A stretch of 50,961 nt of DNA. Origin: Eubacteriales bacterium (GTDB lineage: Bacteria > Bacillota > Clostridia > Oscillospirales > CAG-272). The position numbers were made by a program, and so were the translations under genes. The DNA is taken from assembly GCA_045602215.1 (NCBI GenBank), contig JAZSBE010000046.1, positions 1 to 50,961 on the forward strand. Reading direction: 5' to 3'. Of this stretch, positions 1,790 through 42,526 are shown piece by piece; positions within the stretch are counted from its first letter, which is position 1; every line of letters begins with the position of its first letter. The notes under the pieces were generated by a model that saw only the letters and a program-made list of their open reading frames with translations, made no database searches and was not told where the DNA came from.

Positions 1790-1977
1790 TTAGCCGCTTT
1801 TTCTTTGCAAGAAGGAGGCGCAAAGAAAATAGCTTGAGGCTCGCAAGCTCGCCGCAAATCGCTGCGCGAGTTTGCCAAAAAGAAACGCCGTTTGAGGAAA
1901 TTTCGCGCTCTGCGGAGCGCGACAAGGGCTCCGCGCCCTTGACCTCGCAAGCTTTTGAAAAAGTTTGATCAAAACTT
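1790..1977. repeat. Dispersed structured intergenic repeat, copy 1 (with ~40-bp loop insertion)
   Basis: TTAGCCGCTTTTTCTTTG...CAAAGAAAA...CAAAAAGAAACGCCG...TTTCGCGCTCTGCGGAGCGCGA...TTTTGAAAAAGTTTGATCAAAACTT; homologous to 5966-6115 and 42376-42526. Confidence 0.85.
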
Positions 1978-1984
1978 CCCTAAA

Positions 1985-3415
1985 TTACTCCCCGATAAAC
2001 TTCTTCACGCACGCGATGAGGTGCCGAGCAGATTCCTCGGAGGAATCCTCTGCGAAGATGCGCAGGAGGGGCTCGGTGCCCGAGAAGCGGCAGATGACGA
2101 AGGCACCGTCGGTGAAGTAGATCTTGCAGCCGTCCTCGTAATTGACCTTTGCGATCTCCTTGCCGGGGAAGGTGGGGAGCTTCTTTTCGGTCATGAGCAG
2201 GCGGTCCACGCTTTCCTTTGCCTCGGGAGTGAAGCGGAAGTTGTCCTCTGCCATGACGTAAACGCCGTAACGCGCCTCAAGCTCCTGCCAGATCTCGTGA
2301 GGTGCTTTGCCGAGCGCGCAGACCATCTCTACAAAGAGGGATGCGGCGTAGATGGAATCCTTGCCGAAGATGTGACCGCGCACGGTCAAACCTCCCGAGG
2401 ATTCGCCGCCCAGTACCGCGTCCATCTCGTCAAGCTTAGAGGAGATGTACTTGAATCCGACGGGTACCTCGTAGCAGGTCTCGCCAAAGGATTCTGCCAC
2501 GGCGTCCAGCATATGGGTGGTCGCCAGATTTCTGACCACGGGGCCCTTCCATCCGCGGTATTCGTGGAGGTAGTAGTAGAGCATGACAAGGATCTGGTTT
2601 GCGGAGATGTACTCTCCGTTGCTGTCGATGATACCAAGTCTGTCACCGTCGCCGTCAACCGCGATTCCGAGATCGTACTTTTCCTGAACCACGCGACCGG
2701 TAAGCTGGGTGAGCTGACGGGAGCCGGGAGCGGGCATTCTGCCTCCGAAGTAGGCGTCCTTGTTGGAGTACATCAGGTCTACGGTGCAACGCGCGGTGTA
2801 GAGCACGGTCATAAGGGGATAGGTTCCCGAGCCGTGCATGGGGTCAAAGAGAATGCGGATACCAGACTTTTTGATGGCGTCCAGATCGAGCTGAGAAAGA
2901 ATGGAATCCAAAAAATCGTTGAAGGGCGTTTTGAGCATGCGAACGAGTCCGGACTTCTCCGCCTCGCTCCAAGGCATACTTCTTACCTCTGCGCGGTCGA
3001 TCAGCTCCTCCAGACGGTTGGTGCATTCCACCGAGGAATCGCGTCCCTCCTCCACGATGAGCTTGATGCCGTTGTATTCCGAGGGGTTGTGGCTGGCGGT
3101 GATCTCAACGCCGTAATAGAGCTTTTCATGCTTGACGGTGAACATGACCAAAGGGGTAGGAGCGGAACGGTTCATAAACCAGACCGAGACTCCGTTGGCG
3201 CACAGCACCTCGCCAACCCATCTTGCCGCGTCCGAGGACAGAAAACGGCGGTCGTATCCGATCATCACGGGACGGTCGGTCTTGCCTTCCTCACGCATCA
3301 GATCATAGATGCCTTGCGCAACTCTCTGCACGTTTTCCTTGGTGAAATCCTCTCCGATCACGGCTCTCCAGCCGCCTGTTCCGAATTTGATTCTCTCTTT
3401 TGAAACGGTTTGCAT
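1985..3415 (-). CDS. Phosphoglucomutase/phosphomannomutase family protein
   Basis: FGTGGWR, TASHNP (catalytic Ser), DGDGDR (metal loop), GGESSGG, RFSGTEP; start at MQTVSK after AAAGGGG RBS. Confidence 0.93.
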   Translation of the reverse strand: MQTVSKERIKFGTGGWRAVIGEDFTKENVQRVAQGIYDLMREEGKTDRPVMIGYDRRFLSSDAARWVGEVLCANGVSVWFMNRSAPTPLVMFTVKHEKLYYGVEITASHNPSEYNGIKLIVEEGRDSSVECTNRLEELIDRAEVRSMPWSEAEKSGLVRMLKTPFNDFLDSILSQLDLDAIKKSGIRILFDPMHGSGTYPLMTVLYTARCTVDLMYSNKDAYFGGRMPAPGSRQLTQLTGRVVQEKYDLGIAVDGDGDRLGIIDSNGEYISANQILVMLYYYLHEYRGWKGPVVRNLATTHMLDAVAESFGETCYEVPVGFKYISSKLDEMDAVLGGESSGGLTVRGHIFGKDSIYAASLFVEMVCALGKAPHEIWQELEARYGVYVMAEDNFRFTPEAKESVDRLLMTEKKLPTFPGKEIAKVNYEDGCKIYFTDGAFVICRFSGTEPLLRIFAEDSSEESARHLIACVKKFIGE

Positions 3416-3537
3416 TTCGTTTCCCCTTTCCTTTGCTTTGTTGTCTATATTATAAAATATCTGAAAGCAAATGGAAATAGAAAAAAAGACACAAAATCTT
3501 TGAAAAAGGCACAAATTTCGAAAAATAAGGAATTTGC

Positions 3538-3566
3538 TTGACTTTTGAGCGTATTTATGCTATACT
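3538..3566 (+). promoter_or_regulatory. sigmaA promoter (extended -10)
   Basis: TTGACT-17-TATACT with TG at -15/-14. Confidence 0.7.
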
Positions 3567-3622
3567 AATTTCTTGGTGTCTATTGGATTATCCATATAAT
3601 AAGAAAGAAGGTTTTATCGATC

Positions 3623-4927
3623 ATGTCTACCACGGCATCCACGTTGCTCAGTCTCTCTATCGCCCTGCTTTCGGGCCTTCTGCTCTCCAGACTGGCAAAA
3701 AAGATTCAGCTTCCCGCCGTGACCGCCTACCTCGTTGCAGGCGTTCTCATCGGCCCCTTCCTTTTGGGAACGCTTGGGGTTCCCGGGATCGGAATTTCCC
3801 ACGCGCAGGTCGAGAGCTTTGGTATTATTGCCGACGTCGCGCTTGGATTCATCGCCTTTTCCATGGGAAATGAGTTTCGCTTGGCGCAGCTCAAGGAGAT
3901 CGGCCGTCAGGCGACGGTGATCGGTATCTTCCAAGCGATCTTTACCACTCTGATCGTGGACGTGGGACTGGTCGGTTTACATCTTCTTATGCCCGACAAG
4001 CTCTCTCTGTCTGCGGCGATCGTGTTGGGTGCCGTTGCAACGGCGACCGCTCCTGCGGCAACGCTGATGGTCGTCCGTCAGTATAAGGCGAAGGGCCCTC
4101 TGACCGACATTCTGCTCCCCGTGGTCGCCTTGGACGACGCGGTGGGTCTTGTGGTCTTTGCCGTATCCTTCGGTGTGGCAAAATCCCTGAGCCTGGACGT
4201 CATCAATCCCCTTGCCATTATTCTCGAGCCCCTTCTCGAGGTGGTGCTCTCCCTGGCGTTGGGACTTGTGATGGGCGGACTGTTCACCCTTTGCGAGAGA
4301 GTCTTCCATTCCCGCTCCAAGCGTATGGCGGTGTCCGTGACCTTCGTGCTTATGACGGTGGCGATCTCCTCGCTCTCCTTCACCGTGGGCGGTATTCACG
4401 TGGCGTTCTCCTCTCTGCTTTCCTGCATGATGCTGGGAACGGTGTTCTGCAACTTCTGCGACGTGTCGGAGGAGCTGATGGACAGAGCAGACCGTTGGAC
4501 GGCACCCATTCTCATTCTCTTCTTCGTTATCAGCGGAGCTGAATTGGAGCTTTCGGTCTTCAATCAGTGGGCGGTGGTTCTGATCGGCATGGCGTATATT
4601 GCGACCCGTTCGATCGGCAAATATTTTGGCGCGCGTATCAGCGCAAAGGCGACCAAGTGCAATCCCAATATCATCAAGTATCTGGGCATCACGCTCCTGC
4701 CTCAGGCGGGCGTGGCGCTCGGTATGGCGATCAAGGCGACCCAGCTTGGCGCGGACGGATCCATCGTGCGAAACATCACCCTGTTTGCCGTTCTGATCTA
4801 CGAGATCGTCGGACCGTTCCTGACCAAGATCGCGCTCACCAAGGCGGGTGACATCAAGGCAGAGGGCAAAACGTCCGCCCGCGAGGAGGCAAAGCTGGCG
4901 ATCGAGGCTGCCAAAAAGCAGGCTTGA
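3623..4927 (+). CDS. Cation:proton antiporter (Na+/H+ exchanger family)
   Basis: About 12 hydrophobic segments; LPAVTAYLVAGVLIGP, ATAPAAT, VALDDAVG, LLPQAGVALG motifs. Confidence 0.88.
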   Translation: MSTTASTLLSLSIALLSGLLLSRLAKKIQLPAVTAYLVAGVLIGPFLLGTLGVPGIGISHAQVESFGIIADVALGFIAFSMGNEFRLAQLKEIGRQATVIGIFQAIFTTLIVDVGLVGLHLLMPDKLSLSAAIVLGAVATATAPAATLMVVRQYKAKGPLTDILLPVVALDDAVGLVVFAVSFGVAKSLSLDVINPLAIILEPLLEVVLSLALGLVMGGLFTLCERVFHSRSKRMAVSVTFVLMTVAISSLSFTVGGIHVAFSSLLSCMMLGTVFCNFCDVSEELMDRADRWTAPILILFFVISGAELELSVFNQWAVVLIGMAYIATRSIGKYFGARISAKATKCNPNIIKYLGITLLPQAGVALGMAIKATQLGADGSIVRNITLFAVLIYEIVGPFLTKIALTKAGDIKAEGKTSAREEAKLAIEAAKKQA

Positions 4928-4998: not shown

Positions 4999-5850
4999 AT
5001 GAAAAATTTCTTTAAGGGAATCGTGGTCGGTCTTGGAGGCGTGGCACCCGGGCTGAGCGGAAGTGTCTTGCTGGTGATCTTCGGGCTCTATCAGAAGACC
5101 ATTGATGCGATCGGTACGCTGTTCAAGAATTTCAAAAAGAACTTTCTCTTTCTGTTCCCCCTCTTTTTCGGTGTGGGAATCGGCGTGCTTTTGTTTGGAA
5201 CGATTGCGGATTTCTTCATTGAGACCTTCGAGATGCAGACGCGCTATCTCTTTCTCGGACTGGTTGCGGGTACGGTTCCGCTTCTCTACAGACAGGTGAA
5301 GGAAAAGGGCTTTTCGAGAAAATATTATATCCATATGATCCTTGCCGCCGTGCTTGGTTTCTCCTTCTTTGCACTCACCAAGGGACTGTTCCCGCGCGTG
5401 ACCGATCCCAATCTGATCCAGTCATTGATGATGGGCGTGATCTACGGACTTGCCTTCATCGTTCCCGGACTTGACAGCGCGGCGACGCTTTCCTCCTTCG
5501 GACTTTACGAGGCGTGGCTGGCGGCACTGGCAGACCTCAATTTCGGGGTGCTGATTCCGGCGGCGGTCGGACTTGCCACGGGGGCTCTTGTGATCTCCTT
5601 CTTTATGAGCAAGCTGCTCAAGCGGTTCTACACCGCGACCTTCTCGGTGATCTTTGGATTGTTTCTCACCATTATGCCGAGAATGCTCAACGAGAGCTGT
5701 GTTCCCGCTCTGAACGGGAAAACGGTGCTTTCCTTTGCACTGGCGGTGCTCGGATTTGCAGTCTCCTTCTATTTCGGAGATATCCAAAAGCATAACGCGT
5801 GGATTCGGGCGAAGCTTGGGAAGAAGGAAACAGAAGGAACAACGAAATAA
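4999..5850 (+). CDS. DUF368 family membrane protein (putative undecaprenyl-phosphate translocase)
   Basis: KGIVVGLGGVAPGLSGS...FGLY repeated internally as IVPGLDSA...FGLYE; FLGLVAGTVP. Confidence 0.85.
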   Translation: MKNFFKGIVVGLGGVAPGLSGSVLLVIFGLYQKTIDAIGTLFKNFKKNFLFLFPLFFGVGIGVLLFGTIADFFIETFEMQTRYLFLGLVAGTVPLLYRQVKEKGFSRKYYIHMILAAVLGFSFFALTKGLFPRVTDPNLIQSLMMGVIYGLAFIVPGLDSAATLSSFGLYEAWLAALADLNFGVLIPAAVGLATGALVISFFMSKLLKRFYTATFSVIFGLFLTIMPRMLNESCVPALNGKTVLSFALAVLGFAVSFYFGDIQKHNAWIRAKLGKKETEGTTK

Positions 5851-5858
5851 CTCTGATT

Positions 5859-5907
5859 AAAAAAGTTCCCACAGACCAATCAAACGGTTTGTGGGAACTT
5901 TGTTTTT
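5859..5907. terminator. Intrinsic terminator-like hairpin after the DUF368 gene
   Basis: AAAGTTCCCACAGACC / GGTTTGTGGGAACTTT inverted repeat with flanking A and T tracts. Confidence 0.65.
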
Positions 5908-5965
5908 GGAGATAGAAGAATCGGTTTGCAGACCAAAGGCATACAGACTGTTAAATAGTATAAAA

Positions 5966-6115
5966 TCCTTAGCCGCTTTTCTCTTGACGATGTAGGCGCA
6001 AGAGAAAAGCTCGCAAAAGAGAAGCGCCGTTGGGGTGTTTCGCGCTCTGCGGAGCGCGAGGAGGGCGTTGCCCCTCCACCCTACAAACTTTTGAAAAAGT
6101 TTGATCAAAACTTTT
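5966..6115. repeat. Dispersed structured intergenic repeat, copy 2
   Basis: Near-identical to 42376-42526 with compensatory changes in the stems. Confidence 0.9.
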
Positions 6116-6152
6116 GTCGAACTAACGAAAGCCGTAAAGGTGTCTACAAGGT

Positions 6153-6192
6153 AAAGCAACCTCGATCCGATCGGATTGAGGTTGCTTCTTTT
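6153..6192. terminator. Hairpin downstream of the radical SAM gene
   Basis: AAGCAACCTCGATCCG / CGGATTGAGGTTGCTT. Confidence 0.55.
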
Positions 6193-6197
6193 ATGCT

Positions 6198-8831
6198 TTA
6201 CCGAAACTCCTTGACGCCGTCCGCCGCATAGACGTGCGTGCGGAGGATGGAGTATTCCTCCTTGGCGGGGTCGCCCGAGAGGATGGAGCATTCCCGCTTT
6301 GCCGCGGTGATGAGCATTTCGGGGTTGAGGTATTCACTTCCCGATGCCGAGAGGATCGCGCTGATGTGGATCTGACCCGCGCGGTCGGGATTGTAGGTTA
6401 CGCGGATCGACTTGATCAGGGGGATCAGGTCGATCTCCTTTTCTCCCGATTTGGTCTTCTTGGTCATGGTCAGGGGCGAGGTCTCGTAAAGCTTTTGCAG
6501 CTTTTTCGCCGTCTCCTCGTCCGCACCCTCGAACTTAAGGTTCATCTCGTATTTCGCCCAGCCGATGTCGGCAAACTTGGTCGTGGGCTCGTAGACCTCC
6601 TCCACGCGCATCTCCTCGGTCAGCTCCGCGTTGAGTCTGTCGCGCAGCTCGGCGGGGGAAATGTCGCGGTCAAGGCGAAGGTCGATCATCTCGCACTCGC
6701 TCTCGGTTCCCACAGACAAGGGGAGTCCGAAGATCACCTTGGCGTGGGGATTGAAGCCCTGTGTGTACCACATGGGGATATCGGCTCTCATCAGCACGCG
6801 CGCAAAGGTGCGCTGAAGGTCGAGGTGAGAGATGTATTGCAGACTGCCCACCTTGCGGAACTTGATCCGCAGGGTCTTGGGAGTGTCGAGCTTCTTCCAT
6901 TGGTTCATGGTCTCCGATCGGTTCGGAATCTCGGGGATGGTGAGCGCGGAGGGCGTTTCCGCCTCGGCGTTTGCCACGTGGGGACAAACCGCGCGCACGC
7001 CGCCCAGCTTGTTTGCGCCGCATCCGCTACACTGCTCGCGGCAGTTGGGAGTGGTTGCAGCCGCATACGCCTTGGCTCTCTCGCGCAGGAAGAATTCCTT
7101 GCTCACGCCGCAGTCGATGATGTCCCAAGGAAGGATTTCGTCAAGCCCGAACGCGCGGTTGGCGTAGAAGGCGGGATCGACGCCCGTTCTCTCAAAGATG
7201 CTCATCCAGTTTGCATAGTTGAAGTATTCATCCCAAGAGTCGAAGCGGAATCCCTCGCGGCAGGCAAGCTCCAGCGCGTCAGAAAGACGTCTGTCGCCCC
7301 TTGCCAGCACCGCCTCAATGTGGCTGACCTCGGCATTGTGATGCTGATAGCGCACGTGGCGGTTGGTGATCTTGGTCTTGAGGTATTTCTGCTTTTCCAC
7401 GAGCTGCTCCATGGTGTCCTGCGCCTCCCATTGGAAGGGGGTGAAGGGCTTGGGGATAAAGCAGGAAACGCTTACCGTCACCTGAACCTGACGGGATTTG
7501 TTTCTCTTGGGGTTCTGATAGTAGGAGTCCACCACCGTCTCGGCAAGCTTGGCAATGCCGTCCAGATCCTCGAGCGTTTCGGTGGGAAGTCCCTCCATGA
7601 AGTAAAGCTTGACGGCGTTCTTGCCCGCGTCAAAGGCGACCTTCATAGTGCGGAGCACGTCCTCCTCGCAGACGTTCTTGTTGATGACGTCGCGCAGTCT
7701 CTGCGTGCCTGCCTCGGGGGCAAAGGTGAGGGAGGAGGAGCGCACCGAGTCGATGCGCTTCATCAGCTCCTGACTGAAGTTATCCACGCGCAGGGAGGGG
7801 AGAGACAGGCTGACCATATTCTCGTCCGTCCAGGACAGGAGCTTGTCGCACAGAGGCTCAAGCTGGGTATAGTCGCTGATGGAGAGGGAGGAGAGGGACA
7901 TCTCCTCGTAGCCCGTGCTGTTGTAGAGGCACTTTGCCTGACTGTTCAGCACCTCGGGGGTCTTCTCGCGCACGGGGCGGTAGATCATACCCGCCTGACA
8001 GAAGCGGCATCCGCGAATGCATCCGCGGTAGACCTCCAGCATAATGCGGTCGTGCACCGTTTCAATGTAGGGCATGACCACCTTGTCAGGGAAATACACC
8101 TGATCGAGATCTCGGATGATCTGCTTTTGAACCTTTTTGGGAATATCGTCATAGACGGGGGTATATGCCTCGATCGTGCCGTCGGATTTGTAGGAAACCT
8201 TGTAAAGAGAGGGAACGTACACGCCCGGAATGGTGCGCGCCGCCTCGTGGAGGAACGCCTCGCGGGTGTATCTGCCCTCGTCCTTCATTTTGATATAGAG
8301 ACGGACGATGTCGGGGAGCATATTCTCTCCCTCGCCGATGTTAAAGAGGTCAAAGAAGTCTGCCACGGGCTCAGGGTTGTAGGCGCAGGGACCTCCTCCG
8401 ATGACGATGGGGTCGGATTCTCCTCTCTCCGATGAGCGGAGCGGGATCTTTGCCAGATCCAGCATATTGAGTACGTTGGTGTAGCTCATCTCGTACTGGA
8501 GGGTGAATCCGAGGAAGTCAAAGCAGCCCAGCGGATCCTTGCTTTCCAGCGCGACCAAGGGGAGATCGTGTCGCTTCATTTCCTCCTGCATATCCACCCA
8601 CGGGTCAAAGGCGCGCTCGCACCAGATGTCGGGATGCTCGTTGAGAGACCCGTAGAGCAGGCGCATACCGAGGTTGGACATCCCGATCTCGTAGGTGTCG
8701 GGGAAGCAGAAGGCAAAGCGTGCCTTGACCTTGGATTTATCTTTGAGCACCTCTCCGTACTCTCCGCCCGCGTATCTGCCGGGCTTGGAGACCGATTTGA
8801 GAATGGTGCTGTTTGGACGGTTGGGATTCAT
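6198..8831 (-). CDS. TIGR03960-type B12-binding radical SAM protein fused to a TIGR03936/DUF2344 radical SAM-linked domain
   Basis: VSKPGRYAGGE, FPDTYEIGMSNLG, RGCIRGCRFCQAG (CxxxCxxC), FAPEAGTQRLR, CxxxCxxCG; C-terminal YISHLDLQR...TQGFNPH...LPLSVG. Start taken at MNPNRP. Confidence 0.88.
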   Translation of the reverse strand: MNPNRPNSTILKSVSKPGRYAGGEYGEVLKDKSKVKARFAFCFPDTYEIGMSNLGMRLLYGSLNEHPDIWCERAFDPWVDMQEEMKRHDLPLVALESKDPLGCFDFLGFTLQYEMSYTNVLNMLDLAKIPLRSSERGESDPIVIGGGPCAYNPEPVADFFDLFNIGEGENMLPDIVRLYIKMKDEGRYTREAFLHEAARTIPGVYVPSLYKVSYKSDGTIEAYTPVYDDIPKKVQKQIIRDLDQVYFPDKVVMPYIETVHDRIMLEVYRGCIRGCRFCQAGMIYRPVREKTPEVLNSQAKCLYNSTGYEEMSLSSLSISDYTQLEPLCDKLLSWTDENMVSLSLPSLRVDNFSQELMKRIDSVRSSSLTFAPEAGTQRLRDVINKNVCEEDVLRTMKVAFDAGKNAVKLYFMEGLPTETLEDLDGIAKLAETVVDSYYQNPKRNKSRQVQVTVSVSCFIPKPFTPFQWEAQDTMEQLVEKQKYLKTKITNRHVRYQHHNAEVSHIEAVLARGDRRLSDALELACREGFRFDSWDEYFNYANWMSIFERTGVDPAFYANRAFGLDEILPWDIIDCGVSKEFFLRERAKAYAAATTPNCREQCSGCGANKLGGVRAVCPHVANAEAETPSALTIPEIPNRSETMNQWKKLDTPKTLRIKFRKVGSLQYISHLDLQRTFARVLMRADIPMWYTQGFNPHAKVIFGLPLSVGTESECEMIDLRLDRDISPAELRDRLNAELTEEMRVEEVYEPTTKFADIGWAKYEMNLKFEGADEETAKKLQKLYETSPLTMTKKTKSGEKEIDLIPLIKSIRVTYNPDRAGQIHISAILSASGSEYLNPEMLITAAKRECSILSGDPAKEEYSILRTHVYAADGVKEFR

Positions 8832-8850: not shown

Positions 8851-11800
8851 TTATTTGAAGTTTTGCGCCGATCCAAAGCGGAAGGACAGATGCGTTGCGA
8901 GCCATGCCGCGAGAGTCCCCACACCCTGGAACGCAAGGGCGAGCAACAGGGGAATTCCCTGCAGCATCTCGGTCATACGGAAGGAGATGAGCGCGGAGAG
9001 TGTCGCGCCGATGATCGCAAGGACGGGGAGCGCGAGGTAGCCCACCGAGCGGATCTGACTGATGACGTTGGCGGCGACCAGAGGACGCACCGCGTCAAAG
9101 CGGTCGCCCAAGGCGAACGCGCCGCAGTCGGCGATCTCGGTTGCCTCGTCGTTTTCGTATTTTCCTGGCTTGATCACGCGGACGTATTCGACCCCCTCTG
9201 CTCGGCTTGCCTGCAGGAAGGCGTCGTTGATGGCGGGATCGTAGGTGCGGATCGCGCAGTCGGTGGCGTGCTCGGAGAGGATCATCACCGTCTGCTCAAA
9301 TTTCGGGGAGACCTCGTATTCGATCTCATAGGTCAATTTGAGGACGCCGTTGATGGCGATATAGGTCACGCTGACGTTTTCTGCACGCGACGCCGCGCGG
9401 TCGGTGCTCTCCTTGGGGATTCTGACGCCGCTTCTCGTGAGGAATCCTGCGTCACCCGCCAAGAGGTGATAGTGATTGTCAATGACTGCCTCGGTGCCGC
9501 TCTCTCCCAGTCTCACGAAGGTCACCGAGGGGTCACTCGGGTTGACCTTGCAAAGGGGATTGAAGGCTCCGTTCATCTTGCGGAAGAGAATGCTTGCAAG
9601 CTGCATATCGCGGCGGAAGTCCTCTCCCTCGCGAACCATCGTCTGGGTGCATTTTTTTGCAAGATAGAGATCGCTGTCATGGAAGATGACCGTCTTTGGC
9701 TTGGCGTATTCCACCACCGACTCCTCTCCCACCAGAGCACAGCCCTTTTCATTCAGAAGACGGTTGGCGTGGCAGAGGGGGTAATAGAAGAGCAGGACGG
9801 CAGGGAGGGGAAGCGAGAACAGAAGGGTGAGGATCACGGCGGATATCACGCCCTGTGTCTGCATCGAGGAGACCGCGCAGACAAATCCAACGAGGAAGGC
9901 AAGTGCCGCGCTCACAAGAAGCAAAATCCCGAAGGGGCGTGCAGCGGACGAGGTGTCGTTGCATCTGCGGAAAAAGCCGGTGATGCGCTTTGCGCGGTGC
10001 AGCTTGTAAAGGTTTTGGTCAACGTCATCGTTGACGATCTTGACGATCTTGTCTCCGTGGCGGAGCTTTTGCTTGTGCGATTCCGCTGGCTCAAGAACCG
10101 TCTTGTCTGCGGCGTTTGCGAGAATGCGGAAGACGCGCATTTCAGACGAGAGACGCGCGGCGTCCATCACTGCCGTCAGAAGGAGCGCCGCCAGAACAAG
10201 CAGGGCACCCGAAACGATTGCGTCGCCGCGTCCTACAAGGAAGACGTTCGCGATCTCGGAGAAGAGACCGATGGGGTAAAGGATCGCACAGACCGAATAG
10301 GGGGTGGGCGCAAAGTGAAAAAAGCTTTGCAGACCTGCCCGAATCTGTCGGTAGGAGAAGAATCCCGCGATCGCCAGAATGAGAATGGCTGACAGGGGGA
10401 GAAGCTGCGGGATGCGCTCGCGAATGCCCGAGAAGGGCTCGCCAAAGAGCGCGGGGATCTCGATCGGAAGCAACAGGAGCGTGAGGAGCGCGGTGATCAC
10501 CAGACGGACGATCAGGGTCTTCTTGTCCCTGACGTAATTGGAAAGAATGCGCTCTCCCGATTCCTCACCGGTATATTCGCGGTTGCGGTAACCGAACGCC
10601 GTGCGGTAGGTTGACGGATCGCTTGGCCTTGTGGCGCGAAGATGCGCCGTCTTGAGCTGGCGCAGAGGCTCCGAGCCGATCAGACGGCCGAGCTCATGGT
10701 CGTATCCAAGCTCGAGGATCATGCTGACGTCGTCGGGAGTCATCCCCGTCTTTCTCTCTACGTATCGCAAAAGCTCCTCGTGCGTGAGGGCGTGCACGTT
10801 TCCTCTGAGATTTGCGGCGGATGCGTTGCCATCTGCAAAGGACGCGCCCGCAAAGGGATCCTCCTGCGCGACGTTCTCCAGAACGACGTCAAGTCCTTCG
10901 TCCTCGGGGCGCGCGCGAATGGGAGTGGGTCTCTCCTGCGATCTCTGCGCGGACTTGCCCTTGATGACAGGTGCGCGTCTTGCGTCTGCGGATCGCGGAA
11001 GGGAGACCCCCGATCTCTCTCCCGTCCTCGCCGCAGGCTTTGCGGGGGCGGGGCGAGGAGACGATGCTTGGGGCTTTTGTGGGGGTATGATTTTTTGGGT
11101 TGTTCTTGGCATAGAAACGTTTCCCTCCACTCTGATGGGTTGTGGCGATCTTTCGGGCTGCTTTGGCTTGATCACGATGGGGGTCGTGGATCTGAGATCG
11201 CTCTTGGGTTTGATCACGATGGTATCGCTCGGCGGTTCCTTCACGGGTGCCGGCTTTTTCGGAGCTTTTGGAGGCTCCTGCTCGATCACGGGGCCGATGA
11301 CGCGCACGAGCGGTTTTTTTGGCTCGGGCGGGGGCAGGGGTGTTTCCTCTGCCTCTTGTTCCTCGGGCTGTGGCTCGGGGGACGTGGGCTCTTCCCACTC
11401 GGACGCGACCGTATCCATCGGTTCTTCGTCCGTATCTTCCTCAACGATGGATTCCTCAATCAAGGATTCCTCAACGTTGATTTCTTCAATGGGATCTTCC
11501 TCAATGGGATCTTCCTCGATCGGGGATTCCTCAATCAGATCTTCTTCGATCGGAATTTCTTCGATGAAAAGCTCTTCCGCGACGGATTCCTCGGCTGCGA
11601 ATACTTCTTCAGCAGGCTCCTCGGCGGGGAGTTCCTCAATCACGGGCTCCTCGGGGAGTGCTTCTTCCGTCGGCTCTTCCTCAACGATGGGGGCGATCTC
11701 CTCGATCACGGGTTCCTCGGGGAGCACTTCTTCCATCGGCGCTTCCTCCACGATGGGGGCGATCTCCTCCTCTACGGGTTCCTCAACGGGAATCGGTTCG

Positions 11801-12057
11801 GGGTGCGGGGGAAGGTCGAGCGCGGGGGGAGCGGGCTTCGGTTGCTTTTTCTTGCCGCTTTTTTTCGCCTTGTCCACGGAGGGCTTTCCTCCCGTGACGC
11901 GGCTGAGCATACCCGCGATCTTCTTCTGAAATTCCAATTCGTCCGAATCGGGCGCCTCCTCACGTGGCGCCTTCTTTTGGGAGGACGACAAAACCGCCTC
12001 CTGCAGCTTTTGCAGAAGCTCGGATGCTTTTTGCGAATCAAAATTCTTCTTTTTCAA
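8851..12057 (-). CDS. Large membrane protein: Glu/Pro-rich low-complexity N-terminus plus degenerate P1B-type ATPase-like C-terminal part
   Basis: 1068-aa ORF, several TM segments; LPLPAVLLFYYP...GCALVGEESV...TVIFHDSDL resembles the CPC..GILIK..TIVFDKTGT region of P1B ATPases but lacks the catalytic residues. Confidence 0.6.
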   Translation of the reverse strand: MKKKNFDSQKASELLQKLQEAVLSSSQKKAPREEAPDSDELEFQKKIAGMLSRVTGGKPSVDKAKKSGKKKQPKPAPPALDLPPHPEPIPVEEPVEEEIAPIVEEAPMEEVLPEEPVIEEIAPIVEEEPTEEALPEEPVIEELPAEEPAEEVFAAEESVAEELFIEEIPIEEDLIEESPIEEDPIEEDPIEEINVEESLIEESIVEEDTDEEPMDTVASEWEEPTSPEPQPEEQEAEETPLPPPEPKKPLVRVIGPVIEQEPPKAPKKPAPVKEPPSDTIVIKPKSDLRSTTPIVIKPKQPERSPQPIRVEGNVSMPRTTQKIIPPQKPQASSPRPAPAKPAARTGERSGVSLPRSADARRAPVIKGKSAQRSQERPTPIRARPEDEGLDVVLENVAQEDPFAGASFADGNASAANLRGNVHALTHEELLRYVERKTGMTPDDVSMILELGYDHELGRLIGSEPLRQLKTAHLRATRPSDPSTYRTAFGYRNREYTGEESGERILSNYVRDKKTLIVRLVITALLTLLLLPIEIPALFGEPFSGIRERIPQLLPLSAILILAIAGFFSYRQIRAGLQSFFHFAPTPYSVCAILYPIGLFSEIANVFLVGRGDAIVSGALLVLAALLLTAVMDAARLSSEMRVFRILANAADKTVLEPAESHKQKLRHGDKIVKIVNDDVDQNLYKLHRAKRITGFFRRCNDTSSAARPFGILLLVSAALAFLVGFVCAVSSMQTQGVISAVILTLLFSLPLPAVLLFYYPLCHANRLLNEKGCALVGEESVVEYAKPKTVIFHDSDLYLAKKCTQTMVREGEDFRRDMQLASILFRKMNGAFNPLCKVNPSDPSVTFVRLGESGTEAVIDNHYHLLAGDAGFLTRSGVRIPKESTDRAASRAENVSVTYIAINGVLKLTYEIEYEVSPKFEQTVMILSEHATDCAIRTYDPAINDAFLQASRAEGVEYVRVIKPGKYENDEATEIADCGAFALGDRFDAVRPLVAANVISQIRSVGYLALPVLAIIGATLSALISFRMTEMLQGIPLLLALAFQGVGTLAAWLATHLSFRFGSAQNFK
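11440..11795 (-). repeat. Coding low-complexity repeats (EEIAPIVEE x2, IEEDP-like 15-bp tandem units)
   Basis: Imperfect tandem TCTTCCTCAATGGGA-like units around 11484-11525 and a duplicated LPEEPVIEE / EEIAPIVEE. Confidence 0.7.
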
Positions 12058-39702: not shown

Positions 39703-39743
39703 CTTTGTATTTCGTTGGGCTTTTTTAACCCGTATTTGCGTTT

Positions 39744-40724
39744 TTACAGCCAATCCTTGTGCGTTGACTTGTACTCGCAGAGGATCTTGTCTGCCTCCTG
39801 CAGCAGCGCGCGCGCTTCGCGTTTGCTGTAGACGGTAGCCCCCGATGCGCAGGCGTGACCGCCTCCCCGGTAGCGCTCGGCAAGCTCGTTGATGGCGACC
39901 AGACGGGAGCGCAGACGCACGCGGATCGAACCGTCGTCCGCCTCGAGGAAGGCGATCCAGACAAGGCTGTCTCGAATGGAATCCATGCAGTTGACAGACT
40001 CGCCCGCCTGCTCCATGGTGATTCCCAGTCGGCGGCGCATGGATTTGCTGACGGAAAGATACGCTACTCCATTCTCGGTGCGCTTGATGCGACGGAGGAT
40101 CTTGGCGCGGAAGCGGATCTCGTCAAAATGATCGAGATAGAGGCTCGAATAGATCCGCTCGGTGTCCACGCCGATATCCAAAAGCATTCCTGCCAGCCGC
40201 AGGGTGTCGCCCGACACCGAAGAGAAGCGGAAGCGACCCGAATCGGTCACCATGCCGGTGTAAAGATAGAACGCCGCCGCTTGGTTGATCTTCAATTCGT
40301 CTCGGAAGGCGTGGTAAAATTCCGCGATCATCTCACACGCGGAGGATCTCTTCTCCTCCACCCAGGAAAGGTCACCGTAGGGCTCCTTTTCAATGTGGTG
40401 GTCGATCTTGATGAGCTCGCGGCAGAGGGTATACTTGGGATTTGCGATGCGATCGAGAATGGCGGTGTCGATAATAATGCCGAGCGCGCTCTTGTAAAAT
40501 TCATCCTCGCGCGGCTCGTCCTCCCCGCCCAGAAACGCCACGCGGTCGGATTGATCGTCACCCAGAACGACGACCTCCTTTTCGGGGTAGGTCAAGCGAA
40601 GGATCTCGCGAAGTCCCTTGGTTGCGCCGACGGCGTCTCCGTCCGGTCTTTGATGGCGAAAGATGATGATGCGGTCGTATTCCCGAATCTTGTCGAGGAT
40701 CGCCCTCATGCGTTCGATGTTCAT
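39744..40724 (-). CDS. nrnA: DHH/DHHA1 bifunctional oligoribonuclease/pAp phosphatase
   Basis: HQRPDGDA, IIDT, IDHH, TDSGRF, RLRS, GGGHACASG; AGGAGG RBS before MNIER. Confidence 0.88.
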   Translation of the reverse strand: MNIERMRAILDKIREYDRIIIFRHQRPDGDAVGATKGLREILRLTYPEKEVVVLGDDQSDRVAFLGGEDEPREDEFYKSALGIIIDTAILDRIANPKYTLCRELIKIDHHIEKEPYGDLSWVEEKRSSACEMIAEFYHAFRDELKINQAAAFYLYTGMVTDSGRFRFSSVSGDTLRLAGMLLDIGVDTERIYSSLYLDHFDEIRFRAKILRRIKRTENGVAYLSVSKSMRRRLGITMEQAGESVNCMDSIRDSLVWIAFLEADDGSIRVRLRSRLVAINELAERYRGGGHACASGATVYSKREARALLQEADKILCEYKSTHKDWL

Positions 40725-40885
40725 GCCTGTCCCTCCTCTTGCGTGCGTGGAGCCGTCGAGCCAAGAGCGGCTCGCGCGGTATCTTCCCCTATTGTACCAC
40801 ACATTCTCCGATTTTGCAATCATTTTTTTGGAATTGCATGATTTTCTCAAATTGGGGGAGATACGGTGCGAAATGAGAATTTTTC

Positions 40886-40914
40886 TTGCAAAACGATGGG
40901 GCGCGTGCTATAAT
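40886..40914 (+). promoter_or_regulatory. sigmaA promoter (extended -10)
   Basis: TTGCAA-17-TATAAT with TG. Confidence 0.7.
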
Positions 40915-40945
40915 GGAAATATCAAGTAAGCAAGGAGATCTGAAC

Positions 40946-42325
40946 ATGGATCAAAAACAGTTTCTGATAACCGATTTCGGCGCGGTGAGCGGGGTGGAAG
41001 CGCCTCAGACCGACGCCATTCAAAGGGCGCTGGACGCCTGCTTTCTGGCAGGGGGCGGCGAGGTGATCGTTCCTGCGGGTCAAAGCTTTGTCACGGGTGA
41101 CATTCGCATTCGCAGCAACACCACGCTTCACCTCATGGAGAACGCCGCGCTGCTGGGAAGCCGTGATCCTGCCGATTATCTGCATATCCACAGCGACCCG
41201 CTCGAGCCACTGCCCGAGGAGCAGAACACCCGCGTGCTTTGGTACACGCCAAAGGAATGGGCGGCGATGGGGGGCGGCTTTAAGAAGCACCTCTACACGG
41301 CGGGAAGCCATTGGAGCTACGGACTGATCCGCGCGGTCTACGCCGAGAATATTGCGGTCATCGGAGAGACGGGCTCCCGCATTGACGGGCGCAACCCTTA
41401 CGACCCCGACGGAGAGGAAAAATACCGCGGCCCTCACGGCATCAATATGCATTTCTGTAAAGGTATAACCTTCCGCGGCTACACCCTTGAGAACGCAGGC
41501 AACTGGGCGCACGCCATTTTTCAGTCCGAGGACGTCACCTTTGACTCCTTGACCGTTCTGGCAGGACACGACGCGCTTCACACCCGCGCCTGCTCGAACG
41601 TCCTGATGACCGACTGCAAGCTCATCACGGGGGACGATTGCGTGGCGGGCTTTGACAATCTGGACGTGGTGATCCGCAACTGTGAGATGAGCTCGGCGTG
41701 CTCCGCCTTCCGCTACGGCGGCAACAACATTCTGGTGGAAAACTGCACCGTCTGGGGACCCTGTCCCTATCAATTCCGCGGATCCTTCACCCGTGAGGAG
41801 AGGATTGCGGGCGCGATGGTGTCCGAGCGGGGACGGAACAACCTGCTCAGCTTCTGGACCAACTTCGTGACTGACGATCTGCCCGTACGCAAACCCGCAG
41901 GCAAGGTGCTCATCCGCAACTGCACCGTGAAAAATGCAGACCGTATGCTGCATTTGAACCTGTCGGGCAACGAATCCTGGCAGAGAGGCACGCCTCCCAC
42001 CGACATCACCTTTGAGAATATCCGCGCAGAGGGGATCCTGATGGGTCTGACCGCCTACGGGATCGAAAATTCTCCCATGGAGATCACCCTTCGCAACGTG
42101 GACTACTCCTGTCGCGAGGGCGGAGAGGAGAGCCCGATGTTCCGCGTGGCGCACTGCGACGCGATCAACCTTGAGAACGTCCGTGTCACGGGCTTTGGCG
42201 GCGACGCCTTGATCCGCGCGTGGAGCGACGGCGTGAAGGTCAACACCGAGAATTTTGAATGTGACCTTGGAGACGCCGACCTGATCGTGCGCGCCGACGA
42301 GGAGTTCGTCTGCAAGCCGATCTAA
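40946..42325 (+). CDS. GH28-like right-handed beta-helix glycoside hydrolase, no signal peptide
   Basis: ITDFGAV..T.AIQRALD..GGGEVIVPAG, G.I.IRSNTTLHL, HDALH, TGDDCVA; AAGGAG RBS. Confidence 0.78.
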   Translation: MDQKQFLITDFGAVSGVEAPQTDAIQRALDACFLAGGGEVIVPAGQSFVTGDIRIRSNTTLHLMENAALLGSRDPADYLHIHSDPLEPLPEEQNTRVLWYTPKEWAAMGGGFKKHLYTAGSHWSYGLIRAVYAENIAVIGETGSRIDGRNPYDPDGEEKYRGPHGINMHFCKGITFRGYTLENAGNWAHAIFQSEDVTFDSLTVLAGHDALHTRACSNVLMTDCKLITGDDCVAGFDNLDVVIRNCEMSSACSAFRYGGNNILVENCTVWGPCPYQFRGSFTREERIAGAMVSERGRNNLLSFWTNFVTDDLPVRKPAGKVLIRNCTVKNADRMLHLNLSGNESWQRGTPPTDITFENIRAEGILMGLTAYGIENSPMEITLRNVDYSCREGGEESPMFRVAHCDAINLENVRVTGFGGDALIRAWSDGVKVNTENFECDLGDADLIVRADEEFVCKPI

Positions 42326-42375
42326 TTGGAAAATAAATCTCATTCAAAAATGACAGTTTGTTGAATCGTGCAAAC

Positions 42376-42526
42376 TCCTTAGCCGCTTTTTCTTTGACGA
42401 TGTAGGCGCAAAGAAAAAGCTCGCAAAAAGAAAACGCCGTATAGGGAATTTCGCCCTCTGCGGAGGGCGAGGAGGGCGTTGCCCCTCCACCCCACAAACT
42501 TTTGAAAAAGTTTGATCAAAACTTTT
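42376..42526. repeat. Dispersed structured intergenic repeat, copy 3
   Basis: Homologous to 5966-6115 and 1790-1977. Confidence 0.9.

What the first reader, a model, noticed from the sequence alone, without database searches (positions are those of the whole stretch)
1790..42526. Dispersed ~150-bp element with three-way covariation consistent with an intramolecular triple helix and pseudoknot
Seen: three copies (1790-1977, 5966-6115, 42376-42526), all in the same orientation and all between convergent genes. On the minus strand copy 2 reads GGCGC-TTCTCTTTT-GCGAGC-TTTTCTCTT-GCGCC-TACATCGTC-AAGAGAAAA and copy 3 reads GGCGT-TTTCTTTTT-GCGAGC-TTTTTCTTT-GCGCC-TACATCGTC-AAAGAAAAA. The second Y tract is the Watson-Crick partner of the purine tract, the first Y tract is its parallel Hoogsteen match, and all three tracts change together between copies. 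GGCG ahead of the first tract can also pair with CGCC in the loop. Another stem co-varies (CGCGCTC/GAGCGCG versus CGCCCTC/GAGGGCG), copy 1 tolerates a ~40-bp hairpin insertion in the Y-Y linker, and all copies end in AAGTTTGATCAAAACTT. Established: potential intrastrand triplex repeats are known in E. coli and 3'-stabilising RNA triple helices in eukaryotic/viral ncRNAs. Inference: a structured non-autonomous mobile element or ncRNA family selected for a triplex fold.
Basis: partly seen in the sequence, partly recalled or inferred. Interest (0 to 1): 0.72.

Follow-up and report, generated by a model that had tools for sequence, protein, structure and literature searches.

The report
Jumping repeat built for a triple helix
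The three repeats are copies of a small gene-less jumping element of uncultured gut Clostridia whose inner part keeps three short tracts changing in step exactly as a three-stranded nucleic-acid helix requires, which is rare evolutionary evidence that such a fold is selected in bacteria.

Summary
The three copies are real. They belong to a family with 10 full copies in this 1.68-Mb MAG, and 30 of 36 other genomes searched in its genus have a match.

In 105 non-redundant parsed copies, 89 have both pyrimidine tracts matching the purine tract perfectly, across at least 9 tract variants. In 84 of 86 asymmetric copies the first tract follows the purine tract in the parallel (Hoogsteen) sense, and in none in the antiparallel sense.

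The element is longer than reported, about 235-330 bp. It is a MITE whose ends match those of IS1182-family insertion sequences. It sits at terminator stem-loops and often duplicates the whole stem-loop (27 of 101 copies; 1 of 501 mismatched control pairs). Copy 2 is missing from a close strain.

The fold has the topology of eukaryotic and viral ENE plus A-tract RNA triple helices. It also resembles the unexplained BoxC/PIT triplex DNA repeats. Whether it acts as RNA (my preference, about 0.45) or as single-stranded DNA (about 0.33) is not settled; no RNA data were available.

Rfam has no match. This scan has noted other triplex-capable repeat families on other DNA.

The parts
42328..42562 (-). 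Copy 3, whole element (approximate ends). The 5' end lies just after the upstream terminator hairpin; the 3' end abuts the stop codon of the GH28 gene.
   Evidence: Ends placed by likeness to type-B ends of other copies. Core nhmmer hit 42351-42548.
42495..42526 (-). Copy 3, 5' motif and hairpin P1
   Evidence: for coordinates. P1 has compensatory changes at 3 pairs in 47 sequences.
42471..42488 (-). Copy 3, hairpin P2
   Evidence: GC/CG, GC/AU and GC/CG exchanges.
42452..42469 (-).
   Evidence: 4 pairs with changes on both sides.
42435..42438 (-). Copy 3, 5' strand of closing stem P4 (GGCG)
   Evidence: 36 of 36 paired. GGCA/TGCC exchange in 4 of 95 copies.
42425..42433 (-). Copy 3, pyrimidine tract Y1 (proposed Hoogsteen third strand, parallel to R)
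42419..42424 (-). Copy 3, 6-nt Y1-Y2 connector. Its first four bases form a G..A tetraloop-like turn; its last two extend the Y2:R duplex.
   Evidence: pair 26:62 GC 21 / AU 14.
42410..42418 (-). Copy 3, pyrimidine tract Y2 (Watson-Crick partner of R)
42405..42409 (-). Copy 3, 3' strand of closing stem P4 (GCGCC)
42387..42395 (-). Copy 3, purine tract R (AAAGAAAAA), reached by a 9-nt linker (42396-42404)
42565..42600 (.). Terminator-like hairpin directly upstream of copy 3
5826..6152 (-). Copy 2 plus hairpin X: the 327 bases absent from a related strain, which has 20 other bases in their place
   Evidence: a 2042-nt contig of run X2 joins 5825 to 6153.
6015..6023 (-). Copy 2, tract Y1 (TTCTCTTTT)
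6000..6008 (-). Copy 2, tract Y2 (TTTTCTCTT)
5977..5985 (-). Copy 2, tract R (AAGAGAAAA)
6156..6185 (.). Terminator hairpin Y between the radical-SAM gene and copy 2. Only three T follow it on the minus strand before the element begins.
5865..5898 (.). Hairpin X with T runs, between copy 2 and the VCA0040-like gene
1764..1980 (-). Copy 1: 5'-truncated copy that starts 7 nt after the PGM stop codon and ends before a terminator-like hairpin that lies next to both gene ends (1727-1756)
1877..1885 (-). Copy 1, tract Y1
1830..1876 (-). Copy 1, 47-nt hairpin insert in the Y1-Y2 connector (in the position of an ENE 'upper stem')
   Evidence: folds at -17.8 kcal/mol. The same insert is in two other copies of the MAG.
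1822..1829 (-). Copy 1, tract Y2 (8 of 9 positions)
1798..1806 (-). Copy 1, tract R

Best explanation
The repeat is a non-autonomous transposable element (MITE) of the IS1182 family.

SHOWN
- Its ends are the terminal inverted repeats of autonomous IS1182-family insertion sequences found in sister genomes.
- It sits at intrinsic-terminator stem-loops.
- In about a quarter of copies the whole stem-loop is duplicated on both sides.

STRONGLY SUPPORTED
- Between the ends lies a conserved cargo of about 155-190 nt, made of hairpins P1-P3 followed by a 58-nt domain.
- That domain is under selection to fold, as one strand, into an intramolecular pyrimidine-motif triple helix.
- A closing stem (GGCG/CGCC) holds two T-rich tracts joined by a short turn or an inserted hairpin.
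- A purine tract 9-10 nt downstream pairs Watson-Crick with the second T-rich tract (plus 2 further pairs).
- The same purine tract lines up base for base, in parallel, with the first T-rich tract (T.A-T and C+.G-C triples, 8-11 in a row).

INFERRED (about 0.45)
- The fold works in RNA.
- In the duplication cases the upstream hairpin copy tends to keep the A run and the downstream copy the T run. The upstream hairpin then lacks its U tract.
- Transcripts of the neighbouring gene would therefore read through the element and end at the downstream hairpin.
- In that 3' untranslated region the triple helix would act as a clamp that 3'-to-5' exonucleases cannot easily unwind, as ENE plus A-tract elements do in eukaryotic and viral RNAs. 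This would make insertions harmless or useful to the host.

My confidence in the parts: MITE 0.9; triplex fold selected 0.8; RNA-level action 0.45.
For: Family and spread:
- 10 full copies in the MAG.
- 30 of 36 other genus genomes have a match.

Triple covariation:
- 89 of 105 parsed non-redundant copies are perfect in both relations, over at least 9 purine-tract variants.
- Tool counts: 100% of 537 cells for the Watson-Crick and closing-stem pairs, and 100% of 144 cells for the parallel pairs, with 0 of 500 shuffles as high.
- An antiparallel fit of tract 1 is worse: 90.7% paired and 30 broken cells.
- Flank-run lengths of tract 1 follow the purine tract in the parallel sense in 84 of 86 asymmetric copies and in the antiparallel sense in 0 (r 0.92 against 0.08).
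- The 2-bp duplex extension co-varies (GC 21 / AU 14).
- Hairpin inserts are tolerated in the Y1-Y2 connector.

MITE nature:
- Ends are shared with IS fragments and with a complete IS encoding a 496-aa IS1182-family transposase (NF033551, 462 bits against a cut-off of 270).
- The end motif is frequent in three genomes: 57, 32 and 13 hits against 2, 3 and 1 for the control pattern.
- Flank duplication occurs in 27 of 101 copies against 1 of 501 mismatched pairs.
- Copy 2 is absent from a close strain.
- 97 of 99 copies lie downstream of at least one gene end.

RNA reading:
- In co-directional settings the T-rich strand is the sense strand 37 times against 16 (binomial p 0.0055).
- Only the pyrimidine motif is reported to form in RNA (Holder 2015, PMC4666352, passage read).
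- Among 26 flank-duplication rows, the T run follows the downstream hairpin copy in 8 and the upstream copy in 3. The A run precedes the upstream copy in 6 and the downstream copy in 1 (five of the 26 rows are not flank duplications: four have impossible spacings and one is not a hairpin).
- The topology equals that described for MALAT1/MEN-beta (PMC7583470, section 3.4 read).
Against: - No RNA data: no RNA run was listed, so transcription, strand and 3' ends are unknown.
- No sigma-70-like promoter lies in or beside any of the three window copies on either strand, so any RNA must come from read-through.
- Hairpins P1 and P2 show no excess of G.T over A.C mismatches (6/0 and 6/8), so there is no clear RNA-strand signature.
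- Tract integrity is the same in sense (23 of 27 parsed), antisense (9 of 11) and convergent (27 of 32) copies. Integrity therefore reflects inheritance from source copies, not local purifying selection.
- 16 of 53 co-directional copies are antisense. At copy 3 the only transcript likely to cross the element is the GH28 one, which would carry the purine-rich complement.
- The orientation bias is equally expected if the T-rich strand must lie on the lagging-strand template, because genes and replication are co-oriented in Firmicutes (established knowledge, not tested here).
- Copies are related by descent, so copy counts overstate independent events. The firm count is the number of tract types (at least 9).
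- The linker before the purine tract is not A-rich, so the A-minor triples of true ENEs are not expected.
Confidence: 0.45

Rival explanations
1. The same MITE and the same fold, but the fold acts in DNA. The T-rich strand folds into an intrastrand triplex when it is single-stranded, for example on the lagging-strand template or during transposition, or as H-DNA under supercoiling. This is the proposal made for BoxC/PIT/TMECO repeats. It could pause polymerases, promote rearrangement or copying of the element, or bind a host or transposase factor.
For: - All three tracts lie on one strand, and T.A-T / C+.G-C triplexes also form in DNA (Holder 2015, PMC4666352, passages read).
- Selection seems to act on the lineage of the element rather than on individual loci, which fits a role in propagation.
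- No promoter was found, and hairpins show no G.U asymmetry.
- IS1182-family transposition is reported to depend on DNA stem-loop or cruciform structure (Wan 2017, PMC5678879, abstract, section 22 and discussion passages read).
- The 37:16 orientation bias is also what a lagging-template requirement would give.
- Earlier scan notes file several triplex-capable repeats under this DNA class (unchecked leads).
Against: - DDE transposition is not known to pass through single-stranded DNA (established knowledge).
- Convergent transcription gives positive supercoiling, which disfavours H-DNA (established knowledge).
- The closing stem, the tetraloop-like turn and the 9-10-nt return linker reproduce an RNA ENE plus A-tract layout.
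- The RNA strand energy is lower for the T-rich strand in 43 of 45 copies, but z-scores are close (-4.1 against -3.7), so this is weak evidence.
Confidence: 0.33
2. There is no triple helix. The two T-rich tracts are alternative Watson-Crick partners of the purine tract, giving a two-state switch. Because each tract is locally symmetric around its C, tract 1 can also pair antiparallel with the purine tract over 7-9 bp in a shifted register.
For: With the 3' partner slid by 2 columns, the antiparallel fit of tract 1 reaches 86.4% paired, with 3 pairs changed on both sides (control b). By inspection, every tract type allows 7-9 antiparallel pairs.
Against: - A switch would favour tract 1 being a direct copy of tract 2. 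Instead it is its mirror image in all asymmetric types.
- When the purine tract gains or loses an A on one side, tract 1 changes on the same side in the parallel sense (84 of 86 copies) and never in the antiparallel sense (0 of 86).
- At the zero register the antiparallel fit has 30 broken cells.
- The closing stem would have to open for tract 1 to reach the purine tract as a plain helix (inference).
Confidence: 0.07
3. The mirror arrangement has no function. It is inherited from one ancestral copy, and the variants arose by slippage in homopolymer runs that happened to stay matched.
For: Copies are related by descent. The tracts are low-complexity runs prone to slippage. Tract integrity does not depend on genomic context.
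Against: - At least 9 tract types differ by shifts of the G position, by a second G and by run lengths on either side. Each needs matched changes at three separate sites.
- No templated process is known that copies a tract as its mirror image (established knowledge).
- If the three tracts were dealt out independently, only about 3 of 105 perfect triples would be expected. This is my arithmetic from the type frequencies.
Confidence: 0.05

Closest known systems
ENE plus genomically encoded A-rich tract (MALAT1 / MEN-beta type triple-helix RNA stability elements; also PAN ENE and the ENEs of plant and fungal transposon RNAs)
   Same: - A lower stem, two U-rich strands facing each other, an upper hairpin or turn, and a downstream A-rich tract that pairs with one U-rich strand and lies parallel to the other.
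- The U-rich strands are interrupted by C that matches G in the A-rich tract.
- Association with transposable elements.
(Description taken from PMC7583470 section 3.4; my data.)
   Different: - Bacterial, and carried by a DNA transposon remnant.
- No poly(A) tail and no evidence that the tract is at an RNA 3' end.
- The return linker is not A-rich, so no A-minor triples are expected.
- The upper stem is usually only 2 bp plus a 4-nt turn.
- RNA existence is not shown.
- The two reviews I read (passages of PMC7583470 and PMC13541005) list such stability elements only for viruses, animals, fungi and plants.
BoxC / PIT / TMECO intrastrand triplex DNA repeats of E. coli and other Proteobacteria (Holder et al. 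2015, PMC4666352)
   Same: Short, dispersed, intergenic repeats with three tracts on one strand able to form a single-strand triple helix. Function unexplained. Numbers differ strongly between related genomes.
   Different: - TMECO is G/C-rich and written as a purine motif (C-rich tract followed by two G-rich tracts) with loops of 3-6 nt. Here the motif is A/T-rich, of pyrimidine type, with a 14-15-nt second connector and a closing stem.
- TMECO was reported without any link to mobility genes. Here the ends are IS1182-family inverted repeats.
- The word stem 'covari' does not occur in that paper's main text.
IS1272 and other IS1182-family insertion sequences: structure-dependent insertion at stem-loops (Wan et al. 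2017, PMC5678879)
   Same: - The autonomous partner is an IS1182-family DDE transposase.
- Targets are stem-loops of unrelated sequence downstream of genes.
- That paper's model includes a pathway in which the whole stem-loop is duplicated.
   Different: - New IS1272 insertions replaced the target stem-loop and left no duplication. Here the stem-loop is kept on both sides in 27 of 101 copies.
- The element here is a gene-less derivative with a structured cargo not present in the autonomous IS ends that I saw.
REP/BIME, Correia and bcr1-type bacterial repeats that act in RNA 3' regions (recalled, not read here)
   Same: Dispersed intergenic repeats at gene ends whose RNA hairpins can stabilise or process upstream mRNA.
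   Different: Those are plain hairpins. None is known to me to carry a third, Hoogsteen-matched strand.

Membership tests
MITE derived from IS1182-family insertion sequences | Terminal inverted repeats matching those of an autonomous element of the family | tested here: met
   Type-A ends match the ends of multi-copy IS fragments in G024 that carry a promoter and start codon. Type-B ends match both ends of a complete IS in L229. That IS encodes a 496-aa protein scoring 462 bits on NF033551 (cut-off 270), with DDE_Tnp_1_6 and DUF772 domains.
MITE derived from IS1182-family insertion sequences | Small, gene-less, multi-copy and dispersed | tested here: met
   About 235-330 bp. 10 full copies in the MAG. 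Copies differ by indels not divisible by three, including a 47-nt insert and tract-length changes. A match in 30 of 36 other genus genomes.
MITE derived from IS1182-family insertion sequences | Presence/absence polymorphism at orthologous sites | tested here: met
   A contig of run X2 joins window 5825 to 6153 without the 327 bases. None of 75 PGM loci of other species has a copy.
MITE derived from IS1182-family insertion sequences | Insertion at stem-loop targets, as described for IS1272 | tested here: met
   Flanks fold more strongly than shuffles: 56% and 63% at or below -12 kcal/mol, against 28% and 35%. Locus-specific hairpins are duplicated in 27 of 101 copies. 97 of 99 copies lie after a gene end.
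MITE derived from IS1182-family insertion sequences | Mobilised in trans by the family's transposase | not testable with these tools
   No transposase gene of the family was found in this 77%-complete MAG. A transposition assay is needed.
ENE / ENE plus A-tract RNA triple helix | Stem-loop with a U-rich internal loop closed by stems on both sides | tested here: met
   GGCG/CGCC stem paired in 36 of 36 sequences. The upper side is a 2-bp co-varying extension plus a turn, or an inserted hairpin.
ENE / ENE plus A-tract RNA triple helix | Downstream A-rich tract matching one U-rich strand by Watson-Crick pairing and the other in parallel, including interrupting C/G | tested here: met
   89 of 105 copies are perfect.
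ENE / ENE plus A-tract RNA triple helix | A-minor triples between adjacent A residues and the G-C-rich lower stem | tested here: not met
   The 9-10-nt linker before the purine tract is pyrimidine-rich or mixed, not A-rich.
ENE / ENE plus A-tract RNA triple helix | Exists as RNA, at or near the transcript's 3' end, and raises RNA stability | not testable with these tools
   No RNA holder was listed for the stretch. No experiment was possible.
ENE / ENE plus A-tract RNA triple helix | Match to a curated RNA family | tested here: not met
   No Rfam family at gathering score in the window apart from one tRNA. Only chance-level hits at E up to 10 around copy 2.
BoxC / PIT / TMECO intrastrand triplex DNA repeats | Three consecutive tracts on one strand that satisfy triplex base-triad rules | tested here: met
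BoxC / PIT / TMECO intrastrand triplex DNA repeats | The TMECO sequence pattern (G/C-rich 9-nt stems, loops of 3-6 and 3 nt) | tested here: not met
   The tracts here are A/T-rich with one or two C/G. The second connector is 14-15 nt. Pattern as printed in PMC4666352, section read.
BoxC / PIT / TMECO intrastrand triplex DNA repeats | Forms a DNA triplex in vitro or in vivo | not testable with these tools
   Needs CD, UV melting, NMR and footprinting.

The most novel reading that the evidence does not exclude
This is the first bacterial counterpart of the ENE plus A-tract triple helix. It would be an RNA clamp of 8-11 stacked U.A-U / C+.G-C triples, spread through gut Clostridia genomes by an IS1182-family MITE that splits terminators. 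The clamp would end up in the 3' untranslated region of the neighbouring gene and shield that RNA from 3' exonucleases. Triple-helical RNA protection would then be a convergent solution used by mobile elements in bacteria as well as in eukaryotes and viruses.
Probability: 0.35. Interest if true: 0.9.

Novelty: new variant of a known kind. Interest (0 to 1): 0.7.

Why it matters
Long nucleic-acid triple helices are well documented in a few eukaryotic and viral RNAs. They have been proposed, without a known role, for the BoxC/PIT DNA repeats of Proteobacteria.

Here natural variation does the experiment. At least nine versions of the purine tract exist, and both partner tracts follow each of them, the third strand in the parallel sense that only Hoogsteen pairing explains. 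That is direct evolutionary evidence that a triple helix is selected in living bacteria.

The evidence comes with a compact 58-nt domain ready for melting, probing and reporter tests in RNA and in DNA. The carrier is also of interest: an IS1182-family MITE that keeps the target terminator on both sides. This illustrates a pathway that the IS1272 study only drew as a model.

If the RNA reading is right, it adds a new way of protecting bacterial mRNA 3' ends and a compact stabiliser for engineering. If the DNA reading is right, it gives the enigmatic intrastrand-triplex repeats a mobile origin and a tractable example.

Tried and rejected
- **Rfam.** No family matched at gathering score over the window or at E up to 10 around copy 2.
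- **RNA evidence.** No RNA holder was listed for window 5800-6400. The four runs laid were DNA contigs only.
- **Empty site by comparing species.** 75 PGM loci of other species have no copy, but their intergenic DNA is too different for an exact junction.
- **Strand signature from wobble pairs.**
  - P1 has 6 G.T against 0 A.C, and P2 has 6 against 8.
  - My P3 column mapping in that call was wrong and is discarded.
  - I take the 42 T.G cells at the fifth P4 position as part of tract 1, not as a pair.
- **Strand signature from folding energy.** The T-rich strand is more stable in 43 of 45 copies, but z-scores are -4.1 against -3.7, which is too close to use.
- **Long-range helix from RNAalifold.** It pairs the 5' GUUUU with the end of the purine tract. 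It shows one-sided changes only and competes with the triplex, so I did not adopt it.
- **Helix between the P1-P2 junction and the P3-P4 linker.** It appears in the single-sequence fold. By eye on A3 there is no covariation, so I rejected it.
- **Promoters.** None was found on either strand in the three copies.
- **HUH/RAYT partner.**
  - The MAG has one weak Y1_Tnp-like ORF (24.2 bits, cut-off 23) at G000:C4:20480-20773.
  - It lies 2.6 kb from one copy and is not flanked by copies.
  - I do not consider it linked.
- **Plasmids and phages.** No match in either collection.
- **Triplex in the different 3' modules of other families (L231-L233).** By eye the first purine stretch varies while the hairpin does not, so there is no triple covariation.
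- **My first two tract parsers** were too strict and are superseded.
- **Tycowski 2016** could not be read. ENE features are taken from the review instead.

Full report
**What is in the window**

They align with 76% mean column identity. Each has, from 5' to 3':
- a conserved A/T-rich motif and hairpin P1;
- two G+C-rich hairpins, P2 and P3;
- a short linker;
- a 58-nt domain with the layout GGCG, T-rich tract Y1, a 6-nt connector, T-rich tract Y2, GCGCC, a 9-10-nt linker, and purine tract R.

Exact coordinates of all parts were located. In copy 1 the 6-nt connector is replaced by a 47-nt hairpin. Rfam has nothing here except an unrelated tRNA.

**Family size and host**

An nhmmer profile of the three copies finds 10 full copies and one partial copy in the 1.68-Mb, 77%-complete MAG that holds the window. 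A DNA search finds a match in 30 of 36 other genomes of the same genus, and in 1 of 24 genomes sampled from other families. First-look candidates reached 134 in one genome, but only 13 per genome were scored, so copy numbers are not established.

In a wider draw of 300 other genomes of the order, 17 have a match. Only one of them (G316, same family, another genus) covers the triplex domain. The other listed matches stop within P1-P3. Titles of related MAG records show the host is an uncultured gut or rumen Clostridia lineage. There is no match in the plasmid or phage collections.

**Three-way covariation**

I collected 161 profile hits (E up to 1e-5) from the MAG and 109 loci of about 30 genus genomes.
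- A strict pattern parsed 135 of the 161 hits; 26 failed, mostly truncated or insert-bearing copies.
- A more tolerant parser gave 110 non-redundant copies. Five of these lacked a recognisable first tract.
- Of the remaining 105, 89 have no mismatch either in Y2:R (antiparallel Watson-Crick) or in Y1.R (parallel). Six have 1-2 mismatches only in Y2 and two only in Y1. Eight show 3 or more mismatches; I think these are parse failures at inserts.

The purine tract occurs in at least nine forms. They differ in the position of the G, in a second G, and in the run length on either side. Both T-rich tracts follow each form.

As an independent check I aligned 36 copies with 9-nt tracts. They were chosen only for uninterrupted pyrimidine and purine runs, with at most 16 per type, so imperfect copies are excluded. 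On this alignment:
- The closing stem and the Y2:R helix with its 2-bp extension pair in 100% of 537 cells. Four pairs changed on both sides, including the extension (GC 21 / AU 14).
- Four parallel Y1.R positions are complementary in 100% of 144 cells. Three of them changed on both sides.
- No shuffle of 500 reached these values. Sliding the partner by 1-3 columns dropped pairing to 44-75%.

**Parallel or antiparallel?**

Each tract is locally symmetric around its C. Y1 could therefore also pair antiparallel with R over 7-9 bp in a shifted register (slide -2). This is a real rival reading, so I tested what distinguishes the two: the lengths of the runs on either side of the C or G.

Among 97 usable copies, 86 have an asymmetric purine tract. 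In 84 of these the 3' run of Y1 equals the 3' run of R (parallel sense). In none does it equal the 5' run (antiparallel sense). The correlations are 0.92 and 0.08. Types with the longer run on the 5' side and types with it on the 3' side both obey the rule.

A switch between two Watson-Crick partners would favour Y1 being a direct copy of Y2, not its mirror image. No templated process is known that makes mirror copies. I therefore take selection for a pyrimidine-motif triple helix (T.A-T with one or two C+.G-C) as the best reading, with a confidence of about 0.8. Copies are related by descent, so the safe count of events is the number of tract types, not the number of copies.

**The rest of the fold**

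RNAalifold on 47 copies supports P1, P2, P3 and the closing stem. Twelve of 32 predicted pairs have changes on both sides. The closing stem exchanges GGCA/TGCC in 4 of 95 copies.

The first and fourth bases of the connector are an invariant G and A, a tetraloop-like turn. Hairpins of at least two different sequences are inserted at that turn in the four copies that passed my filter. This is where an ENE has its upper stem.

**It is a MITE of the IS1182 family**

It ends in inverted repeats of two types.

The type-A end motif is frequent in three genomes: 57, 32 and 13 hits, against 2, 3 and 1 for the control pattern. In G024 the same end also bounds three other things:
- multi-copy fragments with a promoter and a start codon, cut by contig ends;
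- 46-68-bp mini-elements made of two ends only;
- elements with other cargo.

A complete element with type-B ends lies in L229. It encodes a 496-aa protein that scores 462 bits on the NCBIfam IS1182-family transposase model (cut-off 270) and carries DDE_Tnp_1_6 and DUF772 domains. The MAG itself shows no such gene, but it is incomplete. A single weak Y1_Tnp-like ORF is not linked to any copy.

**Target and duplication**

The element sits beside hairpins. The 50-60 nt outside its ends fold at -12 kcal/mol or better in 56% and 63% of 101 copies, against 28% and 35% of shuffles.

In 27 of 101 copies a locus-specific stretch of 20-46 bp, usually a whole terminator hairpin, is present on both sides at fixed distances from the core. 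Only 1 of 501 mismatched flank pairs scores as high.

Among 26 such rows, five are not flank duplications (four have impossible spacings; one, L098, is not a hairpin). In those 26 rows the upstream hairpin copy tends to keep the A run (6 against 1) and the downstream copy the T run (8 against 3). The element therefore separates the hairpin from its U tract on either strand.

Wan et al. 2017 reported that IS1272, an IS1182-family member, targets stem-loops and replaces them without duplication. They drew whole-stem-loop duplication as an alternative pathway. I read the abstract, section 22 and discussion passages of PMC5678879. This family seems to use that alternative.

**Direct evidence of mobility in the window**

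A 2042-nt contig of a goat-gut DNA run matches window 5500-5825 and 6153-6700 with 10 differences on each side. It joins the two across 20 other bases, so it lacks the 327 bases that hold copy 2 and hairpin X. In 75 other species the PGM gene is followed directly by a terminator and never by a copy.

**Genomic setting**

I wrote a crude codon-usage gene finder. It reproduces the five Pfam-supported gene calls between window positions 984 and 8936, around copies 1 and 2. With it, 99 copies have both neighbours within 700 nt:
- 44 convergent;
- 37 co-directional with the T-rich strand in sense;
- 16 co-directional antisense;
- 2 divergent.

A further 23 copies were at locus edges and 18 were too far from a called gene. 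The sense excess has a binomial p of 0.0055. It holds in 12 genomes against 5, with 1 tie.

Tract integrity does not depend on setting: 23 of 27 parsed sense copies, 9 of 11 antisense and 27 of 32 convergent are perfect. No sigma-70-like promoter is found in or next to the three window copies.

The three window copies illustrate three situations:
- Copy 1 lies between the PGM stop codon and a terminator-like hairpin next to both gene ends, so it should be in the PGM 3' UTR in the T-rich sense.
- Copy 2 lies between two different hairpins. The upstream one has lost most of its T run.
- Copy 3 lies after the upstream gene's terminator and abuts the GH28 stop codon, so it would be crossed by the GH28 transcript in the purine-rich sense.

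**How it most likely works**

Shown: the MITE nature, the stem-loop association, the duplication, the co-varying hairpins and the three-way tract covariation.

Inferred: the fold forms in a single strand. All three tracts are on one strand, which duplex H-DNA would not need.

For the acting molecule I prefer RNA (about 0.45), for these reasons:
- The pyrimidine motif is the one reported to form in RNA (passage of PMC4666352).
- The T-rich strand is preferentially the sense strand.
- The split of hairpin and U tract predicts read-through across the element.
- The layout reproduces the ENE plus A-tract design described for MALAT1 and MEN-beta (PMC7583470 section 3.4).

In that reading the clamp would hinder 3'-to-5' exonucleases once the terminal hairpin is lost, making insertions tolerable or useful to the host.

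Against the RNA reading:
- There are no RNA data.
- No promoter was found.
- Hairpins show no wobble-pair asymmetry.
- Tract integrity does not depend on orientation.
- The orientation bias would also arise if the T-rich strand had to lie on the lagging-strand template.

A DNA-level role like that proposed for BoxC/PIT/TMECO repeats therefore remains a strong rival (about 0.33).

**Comparison with what is known**

In the library I could search, the only paper linking bacterial dispersed repeats to triple helices is Holder et al. 2015. I read its abstract, sections 15 and 16, and passages. Its TMECO motif is G/C-rich with short loops and no link to mobility genes, and the main text does not use the word stem 'covari'.

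The two reviews of RNA triple helices that I read in part list stability elements only for viruses, animals, fungi and plants. For prokaryotes they list riboswitch and group II intron triple helices.

This scan has itself noted at least eight other triplex-capable repeat families on other DNA, mostly filed as BoxC/PIT-like. One of them reports a co-varying third strand. Those are unchecked notes and not independent support. They do lower the claim of uniqueness, and they made me weigh the DNA reading more.

**Verdict**

This is a real, non-chance feature. It is a new MITE family of a known IS family, carrying a new A/T-rich, ENE-shaped variant of the intrastrand-triplex design. The covariation support is unusually clean. 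The mechanism is open between RNA and DNA. Interest 0.7.

Noticed in passing
L231-L236 and L037 (other families of the order); compare window 42452-42526: The 5' part of the cargo (motif, P1, P2, P3) recurs in other families, with P1 fully re-paired by different sequences. It is followed there by quite different structured 3' modules instead of the triplex domain. The cargo is therefore modular, and the 5' module is older and more widespread than the triplex module.
   Followed up: partly
L204:640-707 and L206 (minus strand, from 3030): Mini-elements of 46-68 bp made of nothing but the two inverted ends of the same IS lineage. They sit after hairpins like the larger copies.
   Followed up: no
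L054, L096, L051, L073 (G010); L031, L034, L035, L052, L066, L110: Head-to-tail tandem arrays in which the 3' tail of one copy runs straight into the next copy. Also convergent pairs of copies whose 3' tails overlap completely.
   Followed up: no
L220:1500-2993 (G007:C12): A 1.5-kb unit bounded by the type-A ends. It holds only a 101-aa remnant resembling the transposase N-terminus and a 284-aa ORF with no Pfam match at E 0.01. It may be a decayed IS or an end-bounded passenger gene.
   Followed up: partly
rows for L022, L100 (4202), L103, L049: In some flank duplications the two hairpin copies have the same stems but loops that are reverse complements of each other. One copy may have been made from the opposite strand, or the loop may have inverted.
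   Followed up: no
window 42323-42330: The GH28 gene's stop codon directly abuts the 3' end of copy 3. The only terminator-like hairpin beyond it (42566-42601) lies on the far side of the element, so that gene's 3' UTR probably contains the whole element in antisense.
   Followed up: partly
G000:C4:20480-20773 (+): A 215-aa open frame with a borderline Y1_Tnp (IS200/RAYT-like) match of 24.2 bits against a cut-off of 23. It lies 2.6 kb from one copy of the element and is not flanked by copies.
   Followed up: partly
window 8851-12057 (-) and 47-841 (+): Long ORFs (1068 aa and 264 aa) with no Pfam family at E 1e-5. My gene finder called 2-919 (-) instead of the second.
   Followed up: no
A stem-loop-targeting IS1182-type MITE that duplicates its target hairpin could produce exactly that picture. 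I did not compare the sequences.
   Followed up: no
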